DNA of 48,622 nucleotides. Source: Shigella phage vB_Shig_1KOFFS. Below, piece after piece: positions 4,691 to 48,412 of the stretch; position 1 is the stretch's first letter, and each line of letters begins with the position of its first letter. The notes beneath the pieces were generated by a model. The model made no database searches, was not told the DNA's origin, and saw only the letters and a list, made by a program, of their open reading frames with translations. The DNA is taken from the sequence record PV615260. One strand, written 5' to 3'. The position numbers and the translations under genes are program-made.

Positions 4691-6259
4691 TTACCTCATG
4701 AACGACGGGTTGATAAAGACTTCGGAATCCATCACGCAGATAAAGCCTAATTCCTCCATCTTCGGCAATAAGCGTTCCTTAATCTTTTTGCTCACCCCAG
4801 CCTGGCCTTTGAAGATCTTCAGGTTGCGGCAGGCGTTATAAATGCCCTGGACGGTCATAACACCTTTTGCCTGCTTGCAACGACTGGCGATAACGTCATA
4901 CAGCGCTTTAATTTCCGCGCCCTCACCAGCAAATCCGGAAGAGTCAGCAGATGACAGGTAAGTTTTGCTCAACTCATGGAACATGATGATCGCTTCGTCA
5001 ATGGTTGCCGTGTCGATCTTCTTCGAACGCTTACCGCCGGGTTGCCAGTTCCGGATCGTGTGGATTACCGACGCCAGACGCATAACCTGCTTATCAAACT
5101 TACCCATCGCGCCGCGAAGCATAGTATGCGAATACTTGCCGCCGTCACCTAACTCAGGTTCTAATTCCTGGCGGGCCTTATTCAGTCTCCGCATTGCCGC
5201 GTCAGTAACCTGCAACTTAATGTTCGACTCGCTCATAATGTCATGAATCAGCCGGAAGTAATCCGCCTTCAGTGACTGGTCGATCGGCTCATAGGTCGAA
5301 TTCCCGTTTTCGTCGATGAACACGCGTTCGCCCAAACGTGTTTGCTCACGAACCAAAAGGAAACGCTCCGAGACACCGATCCCGCGAGAACCCGCTTGCA
5401 TGATGGCGTCGATGGTTTCATCCTGGGCAATTACGCAAATGCAGCCCAAAGCAACGAATGACATATTATTGCTAACGTCGGCACGAGCGATCGACACGTG
5501 GCCTTTATCCCATGCTTTGAGCACCAGTTCGCTGTTCGTCTTCTTGCCGCCATCGTTGCCATACGTGATCCCCAAAAGGCTGTTAACCGCAGTTGCCTCA
5601 TCGGAAATAACGGCAAAGTTTCCCTGGCGGTTGTTAATCTTCGCCAGACCTTCCGGGGTGGTATCGGATACCGGGAAAGTTAGGTCACACAATTTTTCAA
5701 GTTTCTCTTCCAGTTCGTCACGATCTTCGAAAAGTTTCACCATATCAGATTGCGACAACTCCCCTTTAAGCGCCTGCTTGTTGGCGGACAACTTCGCCAT
5801 GATTTTCTTACGCTCCTTCTTGCGCGACTCGTTAATGCGCTCGACTTCGGCCACGATCGGATCGATGGCCAGCGAGTTAATGGCAGACTTACCAGCGGAA
5901 GGCGGCTGCGACGTGATAACGTAAAGCGTCGTCGGTTGCTCACTGCCGTGATACTCGACCCAAAAGCGACCCATCATCGCGGCGGATACGGTTCCGAGAA
6001 AGTGCATGTAAGCGGATGATTCCGGGAACTGAACAGATCTGGCGGCATTGAGCGCCAGCTTGCCGACCACATCGTAATCATTGGCGATCGAGATTGTTGG
6101 GTATTTATCCGCGTTTACGTCGATATCTTTGGGCTTTGGCCAGAATGAAACGGAGTCACGATACCCGTTCGCACGAATCGCAACGCGCAGAGGACTGATC
6201 CCCTCCCTTTCTGCGATGGCGATAATATCTTGCGGTGATACGCGGTCATTTAAAAACAT
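4691..6259 (-). CDS. Large P-loop NTPase-like protein of unknown function (522 aa)
   Basis: Walker A-like PPSAGKS and Walker B-like AVISDEAT; RBS CAGGAGCAAGGG before ATG at 6259. Confidence 0.55.
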   Translation of the reverse strand: MFLNDRVSPQDIIAIAEREGISPLRVAIRANGYRDSVSFWPKPKDIDVNADKYPTISIANDYDVVGKLALNAARSVQFPESSAYMHFLGTVSAAMMGRFWVEYHGSEQPTTLYVITSQPPSAGKSAINSLAIDPIVAEVERINESRKKERKKIMAKLSANKQALKGELSQSDMVKLFEDRDELEEKLEKLCDLTFPVSDTTPEGLAKINNRQGNFAVISDEATAVNSLLGITYGNDGGKKTNSELVLKAWDKGHVSIARADVSNNMSFVALGCICVIAQDETIDAIMQAGSRGIGVSERFLLVREQTRLGERVFIDENGNSTYEPIDQSLKADYFRLIHDIMSESNIKLQVTDAAMRRLNKARQELEPELGDGGKYSHTMLRGAMGKFDKQVMRLASVIHTIRNWQPGGKRSKKIDTATIDEAIIMFHELSKTYLSSADSSGFAGEGAEIKALYDVIASRCKQAKGVMTVQGIYNACRNLKIFKGQAGVSKKIKERLLPKMEELGFICVMDSEVFINPSFMR

Positions 6260-6384: not shown

Positions 6385-6822
6385 TCACAGGTATTTAGCT
6401 TCGAAAGTCGTTCCGTCCGATACACTGAAGCCAACTTCCTCGCGGTACAGCGTCCAGCGGCATCCGTCACGGTCGAAGATGTATCCAGCAACCGCACCGA
6501 GCGCACGACCGCTTTCGACCTGGTAGCGCTTGCCGACGCTGAAGGATTTTTTCATCGGGTTGCTATGGTCAAGGCCGACGCATTTTAGCGTTTTGGTTTT
6601 GAGTTCGATGAACGTCGCAATCGCCGCTCCGCCGTCGCCAGCAATAAACAACTCACCGCTAACGCCTACCGACAAAATAATGCGCTTCTTCTTCAGTTCG
6701 ACGCTGTCATATACCATCATTGACACGTTGCCTTCATCGTCGACGCGGGCGGAATAAAGGTTGTTTTCATTGATGTTAACGGCACGGCTTGACGTGCATT
6801 TAATCTTGATTGACTTCGCCAT
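6385..6822 (-). CDS. hypothetical protein (145 aa)
   Basis: ORF in the leftward operon. Confidence 0.5.
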   Translation of the reverse strand: MAKSIKIKCTSSRAVNINENNLYSARVDDEGNVSMMVYDSVELKKKRIILSVGVSGELFIAGDGGAAIATFIELKTKTLKCVGLDHSNPMKKSFSVGKRYQVESGRALGAVAGYIFDRDGCRWTLYREEVGFSVSDGTTFEAKYL

Positions 6823-7005
6823 TTATTTTCTTTCTCCCATCTCGATATACAGGTTAACCAGATCCAGAAAGTCAGCTTTATTTCTGCAACTCAATTTAAA
6901 GCCAACGTGCGACTCAATTTTATTTTGCATCGCAGCCAGTGTTGCGCCGCCATTATTCATCCTGAGAACTTCGCGGCATACTTCGGCGAGTTTTTGAGAT
7001 ATCAT
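6823..7005 (-). CDS. hypothetical protein (60 aa)
   Basis: Small ORF whose ATG overlaps the upstream stop. Confidence 0.4.
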   Translation of the reverse strand: MISQKLAEVCREVLRMNNGGATLAAMQNKIESHVGFKLSCRNKADFLDLVNLYIEMGERK

Positions 7006-7205
7006 TTTTCAATCACCCTTATTTTGATTGTTTCGCAGGCGCTTTCTATTTCGCTGATAATTCGATTCACCCTTAAATCAATCATTGTTTTATGATGGTA
7101 AATGTCAACAATGCCGACAACCGCTAACACCATGATCGAAAAGATGAGCGCACCAACCCCGTGCATGGAAAAGAGTGTGGCCATTACTGCGATCGTGAAT
7201 TTCAT
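7002..7205 (-). CDS. small membrane protein (67 aa)
   Basis: Mostly hydrophobic product (MKFTIAVMATLFSMHGVGALIFSIMVLAVVGIV); ATG at 7205 preceded by GGAG within a regulatory cassette. Confidence 0.5.
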   Translation of the reverse strand: MKFTIAVMATLFSMHGVGALIFSIMVLAVVGIVDIYHHKTMIDLRVNRIISEIESACETIKIRVIEK

Positions 7206-7280
7206 TTTGGTTTTCTCCGTTGCGTTTCTATGGGGTAATGCTACCCGACTTTCGCCGGGTAGTTTTAGCAATTCGTGCTA
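7206..7280 (-). promoter_or_regulatory. Conserved promoter-like cassette (copy on - strand)
   Basis: Reverse complement reads TAGCACGAATTGCTAAAAC, then hairpin tacccggcgaaagtcgggta, then CCCCATAGAAAC, RBS and ATG; the TAG is the stop of the upstream gene. Confidence 0.5.
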
Positions 7281-7970
7281 TTCTAGATAATTCGCCTGGA
7301 ACACGGCGCGGGCAAAACCTCGCGGAGTAATGGAGCGCAGCATTTTAGTCCTTTCTGACCTTCCGCCTAAAAACTTCCAGGCCCAAAAGAAATTCACGCC
7401 TTCCACTCCATCCGGCGGAGGGAGCCGTTTCGGTTCGACAAAACCGTTTCCGTGCCATATGCACGTTTTCTTCGTGTAATTGTCACAGTTGGGCATTTTT
7501 GGATGCCACACAGGTTCGTTTGGAGAAACATAGCCGCCGAAGTCGCGCGGGTGAAAATAGAAGTCAGGCTTTCGCCATAGTGACGACAATTTTCCAACCG
7601 GGTTTTCGACCATCCAGGGGCAACCATACTTATTGCCTAATTGCTCGACCATCTTCGCATCCCCTGCTGCGGATAATACGTCATTATCTTCCCTTACGTG
7701 CTTGATTCCGCTATGCGCTAACAGCGTGCATGACGGGAAGGCAAAAATGAAGTCGGGATCTGGAATGCCGAGAATCGATCGCTTCACGTCAAAATCCTTG
7801 TCGATCCAAATGTTAACATACTGGATATTGGGGTGAACCATTCTAATGCTGTATTCTCCGTGGTCGCCGGAGTCGGCATTGAAACAATACACCTTGCATC
7901 CCTTGATGGCCCACGGCAGGCCCATGATGCCGGAGCCGTCGAACATGCAGTAAATAACCTTGTCTTTCAT
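7278..7970 (-). CDS. Short C5-cytosine methyltransferase-like protein (230 aa)
   Basis: Motif I-like FDGSGIMG, motif IV-like FPSC and motif VI-like MVENPVG in canonical order; too short to hold a normal target recognition domain. Confidence 0.45.
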   Translation of the reverse strand: MKDKVIYCMFDGSGIMGLPWAIKGCKVYCFNADSGDHGEYSIRMVHPNIQYVNIWIDKDFDVKRSILGIPDPDFIFAFPSCTLLAHSGIKHVREDNDVLSAAGDAKMVEQLGNKYGCPWMVENPVGKLSSLWRKPDFYFHPRDFGGYVSPNEPVWHPKMPNCDNYTKKTCIWHGNGFVEPKRLPPPDGVEGVNFFWAWKFLGGRSERTKMLRSITPRGFARAVFQANYLE

Positions 7971-8193
7971 ACTTTACACGCCCCAATGAACATTCTTTTC
8001 GATTCCAGCGTCAGCGTGACGCCATCCAGGGAGGACTGAATGAGGCGACTGCCAGGAACCGTCCCGATGATGTAGCGGCCTTTCGACTTCGTGATCGTGA
8101 TCTGAGTGAAGCCGGAGGCGCGTTTCATGCGGAGAACGACGCGGCCATGCGCGTTCAGGACGGAGAGAATGTAATCAGTCTTCGGATGGTTCA
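7967..8193 (-). CDS. hypothetical protein (about 75 aa)
   Basis: ATG at 8193 preceded by AAGGAG; ORF-track N-terminal extension lacks an RBS. Confidence 0.45.
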
Positions 8194-8265
8194 TTGTGTA
8201 GCTCCTTCGTTTGTTGGTGTGGGACAGTATGCCACTATCCAGCCATGTTGTTTTAGCAAAACGTG

Positions 8266-8643
8266 CTATGCCGGAACGCAGGTCGCGTAATCTTGGCTGA
8301 TGTAGATCGTGCGCTGAACGCGAGGTTCGAGATCTCCGAGTTCCTGGATGGTAACATCGTTGCTTCCTACCCGGCACGGAACCGATCCAAAGATAAACTC
8401 GCTAGTCTGCTTGTCGTTGATTTGCCATACATTACCGCCTTCCTTTTTGACAACCAGGAAAGGCGCACTGTCTGCACTGAACTCTTCCGGGCCACGACCG
8501 TAGTAATGCGTGATCGCAGCTTTGGCCGCAGCGCTGAAGGCATCGGTAACGTCATTGGTCGCCTTGTCGCGGATGGCCTTGATACGTTCTTCAGGCGATC
8601 CGATGATGTAGGAAAAGCTGTTCGAAATGGTAACTGTTCGCAT
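8266..8643 (-). CDS. hypothetical protein (125 aa)
   Basis: ORF with RBS GAGGT before ATG at 8643. Confidence 0.5.
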   Translation of the reverse strand: MRTVTISNSFSYIIGSPEERIKAIRDKATNDVTDAFSAAAKAAITHYYGRGPEEFSADSAPFLVVKKEGGNVWQINDKQTSEFIFGSVPCRVGSNDVTIQELGDLEPRVQRTIYISQDYATCVPA

Positions 8644-9785: not shown

Positions 9786-9897
9786 TTGCGCAAAAAGCGA
9801 CCAATATAAGCCCATATATAGATAGTAAGTATATGATAAATAATAATATTATTATTATTACTCTCTATCTTTATATATGTTTGGTAAGATTTCTCAG
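9786..9897. repeat. Inverted repeat copy A (about 110 bp, 47-bp AT-rich core at 9818-9864)
   Basis: Reverse-complement match to 42604-42715; the core atagatagtaagtatatgataaataa(t/c)aatattattattattactct differs at one position. Confidence 0.85.
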
Positions 9898-10014
9898 GGG
9901 AGGTTATGGATTCCTCTTGCGCAAGCCATAATTTTTAGATGTTCCGCCGCGAAAAAATGTATATATGGATATATGGGGGATGACAGCAAATCTTCCCAAA
10001 CACGCGCAAATCCT

Positions 10015-10043
10015 TTGACACCAAGGCTTGCGGCCAGTATTAT
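10015..10043 (+). promoter_or_regulatory. Sigma70 consensus-like promoter for the rightward early operon
   Basis: TTGACA at 10015-10020, 17-bp spacer, TATTAT at 10038-10043, about 50 bp upstream of ATG 10091. Confidence 0.6.
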
Positions 10044-10090
10044 CACCTTCCGAAACATTACCAAACGCCGTAAGTGTGGGGGAAACACAA

Positions 10091-47399: not shown

Positions 47400-47678
47400 A
47401 TGAAAAAGATGCTGGCTTTAGTTGTTCTGTCTCTTGGTCTTATTGGTTGCAGCGAAAAACCAAAAACATATGATTGCGGTGGTGAAGCGTTCGAGGTAAC
47501 TAGCAACTATATGAAAGTTGTAAAGGGTAAGAACTCTGGCGTTGTAATTGATGGCGCTGGCGAAAATCAATATAAACTGCTTACTCCTTTTGGGTACGCT
47601 CATTATGAAGTAAACAAAAACACTATTGATGTTAGTGTGGGCGCTTTTCATAATACCTTAACCTGCGAGGTTAAATAA
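47400..47678 (+). CDS. Small lipoprotein, candidate superinfection-exclusion protein
   Basis: Signal peptide with lipobox LIGC (MKKMLALVVLSLGLIGCSE); 92 aa. Confidence 0.5.
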   Translation: MKKMLALVVLSLGLIGCSEKPKTYDCGGEAFEVTSNYMKVVKGKNSGVVIDGAGENQYKLLTPFGYAHYEVNKNTIDVSVGAFHNTLTCEVK

Positions 47679-47680
47679 TA

Positions 47681-48412
47681 ATGGCAAAAGATATCACAGA
47701 CAAAGACACTCGTGACGCATTCATCACGTTTGAGCAATTGGAGCGCGAAACGTTTATTGGCAATGCCCTTGCCACTGGCGGACACTATCAGGCTGTCAGG
47801 CCCGACAAGTTTTACCAGGTAACAGGCAACCGATACGCCGGGAGCAAAACGCCTGATATTGTGCGCGATAAGTGGGCGACCGATCGCAGCCTGATCGCAT
47901 ACATGGAAGAGCGTTATGGCCCTTACGACCTCGACGCCGCCGCAGACAGAAGCAACGCAGTTTGCCCGAAGTTCTACGACGAAAAAACGGATTGCCTTAA
48001 ACGCTGGTGGGGTAAAAACAAGCACATCTGGCTAAATCCCCCTTACTCGTTTCCAGATCCGTTTATTCTCAAGGCCATTGAGCAAATGGAGCACGACAAC
48101 CAGATCGACATTCTGCTACCCGGCGACAATTCTACTGCCTGGTTCCGTGACGCGCAGAAAATGGCAGCCGAAATTATCTGGATTGTTGCAGATGTTGAAG
48201 AGGATGATGACGGGAACCAGTTAAGCCGATCCGGTCGCCTCGCATTCATCAATGGATTAAGCGGGAAGCCAGTCGACAACAACAATAAAGGAAGTGTTAT
48301 TTTCATCATGCGCAAGCTCAAGCCGGGAGAGGAGCAAAAGACGCTTTACATTCCGGTAAGCGAGATTTGCCCGTCATTAGCTAAAAAGCGTATGCGCAAA
48401 CGTGGGGTTTAA
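47681..48412 (+). CDS. dam: DNA N6-adenine methyltransferase (phage Dam-like)
   Basis: NPPY catalytic motif (WLNPPYSF). Confidence 0.75.
   Translation: MAKDITDKDTRDAFITFEQLERETFIGNALATGGHYQAVRPDKFYQVTGNRYAGSKTPDIVRDKWATDRSLIAYMEERYGPYDLDAAADRSNAVCPKFYDEKTDCLKRWWGKNKHIWLNPPYSFPDPFILKAIEQMEHDNQIDILLPGDNSTAWFRDAQKMAAEIIWIVADVEEDDDGNQLSRSGRLAFINGLSGKPVDNNNKGSVIFIMRKLKPGEEQKTLYIPVSEICPSLAKKRMRKRGV

What the first reader, a model, noticed from the sequence alone, without database searches (positions are those of the whole stretch)
7278..7970. Minimal C5-cytosine methyltransferase-like protein without a recognisable target recognition domain
The 230-aa product carries FDGSGIMG, FPSC and ENPVG in canonical motif I / IV / VI order but is 100-200 aa shorter than typical Dcm-type enzymes, and the catalytic dipeptide is P-S-C rather than P-C. 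It could be an orphan MTase with unusual specificity, a hypermodification enzyme, or a catalytically altered paralogue acting as an inhibitor.
Basis: partly seen in the sequence, partly recalled or inferred. Interest (0 to 1): 0.55.

Follow-up and report, generated by a model that had tools for sequence, protein, structure and literature searches.

The report
Known phage mini cytosine-C5 DNA methyltransferase
This gene is the Klebsiella (Webervirus) copy of an already recognised, very widespread family of unusually small phage enzymes that methylate cytosine in DNA, so the finding is real but ordinary; what the enzyme's exact target sequence is has still not been measured directly.

The parts
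7278..7970 (-). CDS of the 230-aa mini C5-cytosine DNA methyltransferase (PHROG 757; orthologue of KarlJaspers/K42 Dcm and of KP36_073)
7920..7943 (-). Motif I, FDGSGIMG (residues 10-17): AdoMet-binding glycine loop after strand 1
   Evidence: Translation. D11, G12, S13 and G14 are invariant in alignment A1. hhalign places it on FAGIG of E. coli Dcm. Strand 5-9 precedes it in the model.
7725..7739 (-). Motif IV, FPSCT (residues 78-82): catalytic nucleophile Cys81, with Ser80 in place of the canonical Pro
   Evidence: C81 is invariant in 75 diverse members. It equals C82 of K42 Dcm, which was mutated in the inactive quadruple mutant. Variants at the x position of FPxCT: P 83, D 75, S 32, E 10, V 9. 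Aligned on PPCQ of M.HaeIII and DNMT2 and on FPCQ of Dcm.
7593..7607 (-). Motif VI, ENPVG (residues 122-126): Glu122 is the counterpart of the ENV glutamate that contacts the target cytosine
   Evidence: E122 and P124 are invariant. E122 equals E128 of K42 Dcm. Aligned on LENV of E. coli Dcm.
7455..7472 (-). Motif VIII equivalent, KKTCIW (residues 167-172), on a strand of the core sheet; basic residues replace the canonical QxRxR
   Evidence: K167, T169 and W172 are invariant. K167/K168 equal K175/K176 of K42 Dcm. Strand 169-174 in the model.
7338..7448 (-). Vestigial target-recognition region (residues 175-211, 37 aa) between the motif VIII equivalent and motif IX
   Evidence: Translation. 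Two short helices, 196-201 and 206-211, in the model. W196, W198, G202, G203, T208 and K209 are conserved in A1. Its role in DNA recognition is inferred from its position only.
7302..7337 (-). Motif IX, RSITPRGFARAV (residues 212-223); only 7 residues (FQANYLE) follow, so there is no canonical motif X
   Evidence: Compare E. coli Dcm RRLTPRECARLMGF, with GNSV about 30 residues further on. R212, S213, P216 and G218 are conserved.
7967..8194 (-). Upstream 75-aa ORF (PHROG 4344, function unknown) whose stop overlaps the methyltransferase start (ATGA); same operon, not a conserved partner
   Evidence: It is not homologous to the ORFs upstream of dcm in KarlJaspers or IsaakIselin.
47681..48412 (+). 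Second, unrelated DNA methyltransferase of the phage: Dam-type N6-adenine methyltransferase (243 aa, NPPY motif)
   Evidence: PF05869 at E 4.6e-55 and PHROG 111. ORF. 98% identical to MezzoGao gp27.

Best explanation
The gene encodes an active, stand-alone (orphan) S-adenosylmethionine-dependent DNA cytosine-C5 methyltransferase of the phage 'mini-Dcm' family. Inferred mechanism, from the standard C5-methyltransferase chemistry: motif I (FDGSG) and the acidic residues after strands 2 and 3 hold AdoMet. The target cytosine is flipped into the pocket. Cys81 attacks C6, Glu122 contacts N3/N4, and Lys167/Lys168 take the role of the motif VIII arginines. The methyl group goes to C5 and the enzyme is then released by beta-elimination. 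The most likely target is the Dcm site CCWGG, read by the short 175-211 segment and the catalytic loop. The product, 5mC on replicating phage DNA, protects it from 5mC-sensitive restriction enzymes such as EcoRII-type enzymes in Klebsiella hosts; the phage's Dam-type enzyme covers GATC. As a side effect, the same activity would make the phage detectable by retron Ec86/Eco1-type defences that sense methylation of their msDNA. What is shown here: ORF, fold, motif conservation, homology and selection. What is shown elsewhere for relatives: 5mC formation, retron triggering and EcoRII resistance of KP36 DNA. What is inferred: activity of this Ser80 variant, CCWGG specificity and the anti-restriction role.
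Against: The protein itself gets no Pfam or NCBIfam hit even at E 10. Family profiles do not reach significance against PDB C5 methyltransferases or E. coli Dcm by sequence. The canonical Pro of the Pro-Cys dipeptide is Ser here, whereas the tested K42/KarlJaspers enzyme has FPPCT, so activity of the Ser variant is inferred. No methylome exists for any family member. The retron study took CCWGG from E. coli Dcm rather than measuring it. It is also odd that the dcm+ MG1655 host did not itself trigger the retron, which hints that the phage enzyme may not act exactly like host Dcm. The EcoRII resistance of KP36 DNA could come partly from host Dcm, as its authors assumed. The BASEL study found no simple link between Drexlerviridae methyltransferase genes and restriction resistance.
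Confidence: 0.78

Rival explanations
1. It is an active C5 DNA methyltransferase, but its specificity is not that of Dcm. It could have a shorter or relaxed motif, methylate both cytosines of CCWGG, or prefer hairpin or single-stranded DNA. This would be a consequence of the 37-aa recognition segment.
For: The recognition region is far smaller than in sequence-specific bacterial enzymes, and the closest solved folds are DNMT3A/B, which read only CpG. Specificity was assumed and not measured in the only experimental study. Host Dcm in MG1655 did not trigger retron Ec86 whereas the phage enzyme did. In Webervirus FZ10 a single predicted NotI site was not cut.
Against: KP36 DNA is fully EcoRII-resistant at 155 CCWGG sites. 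Changing either C of the msDNA CCTGG abolished the defence. FZ10 DNA is cut by HaeIII, BamHI and EcoRI as predicted, so methylation is not indiscriminate.
Confidence: 0.17
2. It is a catalytically impaired paralogue. The Pro-to-Ser change in motif IV would have disabled methyl transfer, and the protein would act by binding DNA or AdoMet, for example as a decoy or an inhibitor of host enzymes.
For: Ser replaces the canonical Pro next to the catalytic Cys. There is no canonical motif X or QxRxR. The catalytic loop (residues 82-94) has low model confidence.
Against: Cys81, Glu122 and Lys167 are invariant. The residue before the Cys varies freely (P/D/S/E/V) among otherwise highly conserved family members, including separate lineages carrying S. 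dN/dS is 0.05-0.11. KP36, which has the same FPSCT enzyme, has EcoRII-resistant DNA. From my own recollection, unverified here: Pro185Ala and Pro185Ser mutants of M.EcoRII kept partial activity (Kossykh et al. 1995, FEBS Lett 370:75; one search confirms only that the reference exists).
Confidence: 0.03
3. It is a hypermodification enzyme or an RNA enzyme. It would transfer a group other than methyl to cytosine C5 (for example carboxymethyl from Cx-SAM), or methylate tRNA as Dnmt2 does, and would not make 5mC in DNA.
Against: These scores are no better than those for ordinary DNA C5 methyltransferases. LC-MS detected 5mC for the orthologue. No Cx-SAM synthase or other modification gene is annotated in close relatives. 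Webervirus DNA is cut normally by many enzymes.
Confidence: 0.02

Closest known systems
Dcm of Escherichia phage K42 / KarlJaspers (Bas06, bas06_0055), the trigger of retron Ec86/Eco1 (bioRxiv 10.1101/2023.08.16.553469; published as Wang et al. 2024, Cell Rep 43:114857)
   Same: Same family and size (236 vs 230 aa), 48% identity over the full length, and the same four functional residues. Both are in Drexlerviridae and occupy the same position, in a leftward operon a few small ORFs upstream of the PHROG 2373 helicase.
   Different: The host genus differs (Klebsiella vs E. coli). Motif IV is FPSCT here and FPPCT there. The upstream neighbour ORF is unrelated. This copy has not been assayed.
KP36_073 of Klebsiella phage KP36 (type Webervirus), and the 'DNA / cytosine methyltransferase' genes of MezzoGao, FZ10, the VAC phages and others
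   Same: These are orthologues at 96-99% identity, with the same synteny and the same FPSCT motif.
   Different: Essentially nothing differs. KP36_073 was deposited as 'hypothetical protein', and the CCWGG protection of its DNA was credited to host Dcm.
E. coli Dcm / M.EcoRII (PF00145; CCWGG)
   Same: Motifs I, IV (Cys), VI and IX are recognisably shared and collinear. The probable target site and product are the same.
   Different: Dcm is 472 aa, with an N-terminal extension, QxRxR, a target recognition domain of more than 100 aa and motif X (GNSV). None of these is present here. Sequence similarity is below significance (hhalign E 0.16). No vsr-like partner gene was seen near the phage gene.
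DNMT3A / DNMT3B catalytic domain (best solved-structure match)
   Different: Only 12-18% identity. DNMT3 has motif X, works as a DNMT3L-assisted tetramer and reads CpG. The oligomeric state of the phage enzyme is unknown.

Membership tests
Phage mini-Dcm family (PHROG 757; K42/KarlJaspers Dcm type) | Full-length match to the family profile | tested here: met
   PHROG 757 at E 4.7e-84; residues 1-228 match profile positions 12-219 of 247.
Phage mini-Dcm family (PHROG 757; K42/KarlJaspers Dcm type) | Full-length homology to the experimentally studied member, with its functional residues C82, E128, K175 and K176 | tested here: met
   BLASTP 48% identity, E 2e-71. The residues align to C81, E122, K167 and K168.
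Phage mini-Dcm family (PHROG 757; K42/KarlJaspers Dcm type) | Single-domain protein of about 200-260 aa with no extra domains | tested here: met
   230 aa. Homologues are 215-248 aa and representatives are mostly 200-260 aa.
Phage mini-Dcm family (PHROG 757; K42/KarlJaspers Dcm type) | Produces 5mC in DNA in vivo and triggers retron Ec86 | not testable with these tools
   Shown only for K42 Dcm. Indirect support comes from the EcoRII resistance of KP36 DNA.
C5-cytosine DNA methyltransferases (Pfam PF00145, Dcm / M.HhaI type) | Class I AdoMet methyltransferase fold closest to C5 methyltransferases | tested here: met
C5-cytosine DNA methyltransferases (Pfam PF00145, Dcm / M.HhaI type) | Motif I FxGxG | tested here: met
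   FDGSG at residues 10-14, conserved in A1 and aligned to FAGIG of Dcm.
C5-cytosine DNA methyltransferases (Pfam PF00145, Dcm / M.HhaI type) | Motif IV Pro-Cys dipeptide with the catalytic Cys | tested here: inconclusive
   The Cys is present and invariant. The Pro is replaced by Ser here and by P/D/S/E/V across the family. The feature is half met.
C5-cytosine DNA methyltransferases (Pfam PF00145, Dcm / M.HhaI type) | Motif VI ENV glutamate | tested here: met
   ENPV, with E122 invariant, aligned to ENV of Dcm. There is one extra Pro.
C5-cytosine DNA methyltransferases (Pfam PF00145, Dcm / M.HhaI type) | Motif VIII QxRxR | tested here: not met
   No QxRxR is present. The equivalent strand carries KKTCIW, with K167 invariant.
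C5-cytosine DNA methyltransferases (Pfam PF00145, Dcm / M.HhaI type) | Motif IX (RxLTPRExARLQGF) | tested here: met
   RSITPRGFARAV compared with Dcm RRLTPRECARLM.
C5-cytosine DNA methyltransferases (Pfam PF00145, Dcm / M.HhaI type) | Motif X (GNSV) C-terminal to motif IX | tested here: not met
   Only FQANYLE follows motif IX. The conserved FxAN might be a remnant, but this is speculation.
C5-cytosine DNA methyltransferases (Pfam PF00145, Dcm / M.HhaI type) | Variable target recognition domain (typically 80 aa or more) between motifs VIII and IX | tested here: not met
   37 residues, 175-211.
C5-cytosine DNA methyltransferases (Pfam PF00145, Dcm / M.HhaI type) | Score above the Pfam gathering threshold | tested here: not met
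   No hit at E up to 10 for this protein. Only 6 of 75 members hit at E below 1. The 62%-identical P0026 does pass, at 27.3 vs 22 bits.

The most novel reading that the evidence does not exclude
The mini-Dcm family may be a structurally distinct, minimal class of C5 DNA methyltransferases. It has no motif X, no QxRxR, a dispensable Pro in the 'Pro-Cys' motif and a 37-aa recognition segment. It might achieve sequence specificity, or tolerate the lack of it, by a mechanism not seen in classical bacterial enzymes. One possibility is DNMT3-like dimerisation. Another is reading a target that differs from host Dcm, which would explain why only the phage enzyme, and not host Dcm, trips retron Ec86.
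Probability: 0.25. Interest if true: 0.5.

Novelty: already known. Interest (0 to 1): 0.2.

Why it matters
This is of limited importance as a discovery. The gene is a routinely annotated phage cytosine methyltransferase with an experimentally studied relative. Three practical points follow. (1) Weberviruses are widely proposed for Klebsiella phage therapy, and a phage-encoded Dcm-like enzyme affects both which restriction systems the phage escapes and which methylation-sensing defences (retron Eco1/Ec86 type) it would trigger. (2) The 2013 conclusion that KP36 has no cytosine methyltransferase and relies on host Dcm should be revisited, because KP36_073 is this enzyme. (3) The family is a compact natural example of a C5 methyltransferase stripped to about 230 residues, so a measured specificity and a structure with DNA would be useful for enzymology and for tool building.

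Tried and rejected
Direct sequence searches did not link the protein to canonical C5 methyltransferases. Pfam and NCBIfam scans of the protein gave nothing, even at E 10. phmmer of the protein and profile searches with A1 and A2 against PDB sequences gave only noise, or sub-threshold hits to M.HaeIII and DNMT2. hhalign of the family profile against E. coli Dcm aligned motifs I, IV and VI in register but was not significant. The link rests on structure and on a close homologue that passes the Pfam threshold.

I tested whether the translationally coupled upstream 75-aa ORF is a conserved partner or specificity subunit. It is not homologous to the ORFs upstream of dcm in KarlJaspers or IsaakIselin, and K42 Dcm works when expressed alone. 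I rejected this idea.

I checked whether longer family members carry a detachable target recognition domain. Six of seven had no Pfam domain and one has a C-terminal HNH_2 domain. This gave no support.

I used site counts to look for the specificity. CCWGG and GATC are not avoided, while GGWCC and many GC-rich hexamers are absent. This is compatible with CCWGG protection but is not decisive.

Literature searches for a phage methylome covering this family found none. The published Cell Reports version is not held. The AlphaFold-database fold library was unavailable.

Full report
**Observation**

The window holds an ATG-to-stop ORF of 230 aa at 7278..7970 on the minus strand.
- FDGSGIMG at residues 10-17
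- FPSC(T) at residues 78-82
- ENPVG at residues 122-126

The ORF's ATG overlaps the stop of an upstream 75-aa ORF (ATGA). It lies in a leftward block of small ORFs that ends in a PHROG 2373 helicase at 4691-6259.

**What the window is**

Megablast of 6800-8500 finds 386 phage records. Most are Klebsiella phages of the genus Webervirus (Drexlerviridae, T1-like), at 93-95% nucleotide identity. The gene under the match is already labelled 'DNA methyltransferase', 'DNA cytosine methyltransferase' or 'C-5 cytosine-specific DNA methylase' in many of them. Papers describing Weberviruses list it as an anti-restriction cytosine methyltransferase.

**How widespread the family is**

- tblastn finds the protein in 1,486 phage records, in phages recorded as infecting Escherichia, Klebsiella, Salmonella, Shigella, Vibrio, Cronobacter and Arthrobacter among others.
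- It matches PHROG 757 'DNA methyltransferase' at E 4.7e-84 over its full length.
- The large protein collection gives 854 hits, all about 215-248 aa among the best 120. Several are named 'DNA cytosine methyltransferase' by NCBI.
- An exhaustive HMMER scan finds 804 clusters at 50% identity, nearly all 200-260 aa.

The small size is therefore the norm for a large, coherent family. It is not a truncation.

**Is it a C5 methyltransferase?**

By sequence alone the link to canonical enzymes is weak:
- There is no Pfam or NCBIfam hit, even at E 10.
- Family profiles do not reach significance against PDB sequences or E. coli Dcm.
- The sub-threshold alignments are nevertheless in register. Motif I falls on FAGIG, FPPCT on FPCQ/PPCQ, and ENPV on ENV.
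- A 62%-identical homologue (P0026) does pass the PF00145 gathering score over motifs I-IV.

Structure settles the question:
- An AlphaFold model built on 24 homologues has pLDDT 87.5 and pTM 0.87.
- Foldseek against the PDB returns only DNMT3A/3B catalytic domains in the top 50 (best E 8e-9).
- BFVD returns phage 'DNA-cytosine methylases' with TM up to 0.91.

**Anatomy**

| Element | Residues | Sequence or note |
|---|---|---|
| Motif I | 10-14 | FDGSG |
| Motif IV | 78-82 | FPSCT |
| Catalytic loop | 82-94 | low model confidence |
| Motif VI | 122-125 | ENPV |
| Motif VIII equivalent | 167-172 | KKTCIW, replaces QxRxR |
| Recognition segment | 175-211 | 37 residues |
| Motif IX | 212-223 | RSITPRGFARAV; compare Dcm RRLTPRECARLM |
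| C-terminal tail | 224-230 | FQANYLE; no room for motif X (GNSV) |

Across 75 members with 34% mean identity, C81, E122, P124, K167, T169, W172 and G218 are invariant.

The residue before the Cys is P in 83, D in 75, S in 32, E in 10 and V in 9 of 245 family sequences. It is not an insertion and not a sign of lost catalysis. Within Webervirus the gene evolves at dN/dS 0.05-0.11.

**Experimental evidence from relatives**

A preprint on retron Ec86 (10.1101/2023.08.16.553469; published as Wang et al. 2024, Cell Rep 43:114857, cited) studied phage K42. Its genome is 95.4% identical to KarlJaspers Bas06. Escaper phages were isolated:
- All four escapers had lost or damaged a 711-bp 'dcm' gene.
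- Expressing that Dcm alone was toxic only when the retron was present.
- LC-MS showed high 5mC on msDNA with the wild-type enzyme, but not with a C82A/E128A/K175A/K176A mutant.
- 34 of 35 retron-sensitive phages encoded such a Dcm.

I retrieved KarlJaspers bas06_0055 (711 bp, 236 aa). It is 48% identical to the window protein over the full length (E 2e-71), and the four mutated residues align to C81, E122, K167 and K168. It occupies the same relative genome position.

Separately, Klebsiella phage KP36, the type Webervirus, carries KP36_073. This gene is annotated 'hypothetical protein' and is 97% identical, with the same FPSCT motif. KP36 DNA has 155 EcoRII (CCWGG) sites but was not cut by EcoRII. 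The authors did not recognise this gene and credited host Dcm. DNA of KP34, which has no methyltransferase gene, was cut by all enzymes in the same study.

In the window itself CCWGG (130 observed, 145 expected) and GATC (287, 304) are not avoided. GGWCC and many GC-rich hexamer palindromes are absent. This fits protection of CCWGG by this enzyme and of GATC by the Dam-type enzyme at 47681-48412.

**Best explanation**

The gene encodes an active orphan DNA C5-cytosine methyltransferase of the phage mini-Dcm family. It probably methylates CCWGG, protects phage DNA from 5mC-sensitive restriction, and incidentally serves as a trigger for methylation-sensing retrons. I put confidence in an active C5 DNA methyltransferase at about 0.8, and in CCWGG specifically at about 0.55.

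What remains inferred:
- Activity of the Ser80 variant. The tested enzyme has Pro at this position.
- The target sequence. The retron study assumed CCWGG from E. coli Dcm and supported it only by msDNA mutagenesis. The dcm+ host did not self-trigger the retron, so the phage enzyme may differ from host Dcm in some respect.
- The anti-restriction benefit. BASEL found no simple correlation between these genes and restriction resistance.

**Rivals**

- A different or relaxed specificity is the only serious rival (about 0.17).
- A catalytically dead binder or inhibitor (about 0.03) is contradicted by the invariant catalytic residues, purifying selection and the natural variability of the Pro position.
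- A hypermodification or RNA enzyme (about 0.02) is contradicted by detection of 5mC for the orthologue and by normal cutting of Webervirus DNA by many enzymes.
- No conserved partner protein exists.

**Comparison and novelty**

The gene works like Dcm/M.EcoRII and is a clear member of the PHROG 757 / K42-Dcm family. Measured against the classical PF00145 definition:
- It meets the fold, motifs I, VI and IX, and the catalytic Cys.
- It lacks the Pro of the Pro-Cys motif, QxRxR, motif X and a full-size target recognition domain.
- It does not reach the Pfam threshold itself.

It is best described as a divergent, minimal branch of the C5 methyltransferases. Because the gene is already annotated as such in this phage genus, and a family member has been characterised, I rate novelty as 'already known' and interest as low (0.2). 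What remains of interest is the unmeasured specificity and how so small a recognition region reads DNA.

Noticed in passing
window 47681-48412 (+): The phage has a second DNA methyltransferase. It is a 243-aa Dam-type N6-adenine enzyme (PF05869 at E 4.6e-55, NPPY motif), located after the helicase and VRR-NUC genes. GATC sites are not avoided (287 observed, 304 expected).
   Followed up: partly
whole window: There is strong, selective palindrome avoidance. GGWCC occurs 0 times (expected 24.6), GCGCGC 0 (19.8), GGCGCC 0 (19.4), CCCGGG 0 (16.1), GCCGGC 0 (15.8), CGGCCG 0 (13.6), GCATGC 0 (11.1), CTGCAG 0 (7.8), GGTACC 0 and RCCGGY 3 (34.5). CCSGG is over-represented (114 vs 73.6). This looks like restriction-site avoidance operating alongside methylation.
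   Followed up: partly
L007 (KP36, JF501022) 47552-48244 (-): KP36_073, deposited as 'hypothetical protein', is 97% identical to this methyltransferase. The 2013 KP36 paper stated that the phage lacks a cytosine methyltransferase and attributed the EcoRII resistance of its DNA to host Dcm. That attribution probably needs revising.
   Followed up: yes
window 7967-8194 (-): A 75-aa ORF (PHROG 4344, function unknown) is translationally coupled to the methyltransferase through an ATGA overlap. It is conserved in Weberviruses (87% identity to the MezzoGao copy) but unrelated to the ORF upstream of dcm in KarlJaspers or IsaakIselin, so it is not a family-wide partner.
   Followed up: yes
related records PP978614.1 (AttikonH6) and PQ6577xx-PQ6578xx (Roth series), region matching window 6800-8500: In some Weberviruses the matching region is about 700 bp longer and is annotated with an extra D12-class N6-adenine methyltransferase beside the cytosine methyltransferase. 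This suggests a variable methyltransferase cassette at this spot.
   Followed up: no
protein P0242 (348 aa, family representative): One family member carries a C-terminal HNH_2 endonuclease domain (PF13391 at E 5.9e-8, residues 250-298). This is either a methyltransferase-nuclease fusion or a merged gene call.
   Followed up: no
records MG065640.1 and MG065659.1 ('Campylobacter phage' A14b and C5): Records labelled as Campylobacter phages hold copies 48-61% identical to this enterobacterial-phage gene. Given the host labels, this is unexpected and may reflect mislabelled or contaminant coliphage genomes.
   Followed up: no
window about 9800-10050: A divergent intergenic region lies between the leftward small-ORF operon that contains the methyltransferase and the rightward genes. 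It holds a near-consensus sigma-70-like promoter on the + strand (TTGACA-17-TATTAT, 10015-10043).
   Followed up: no
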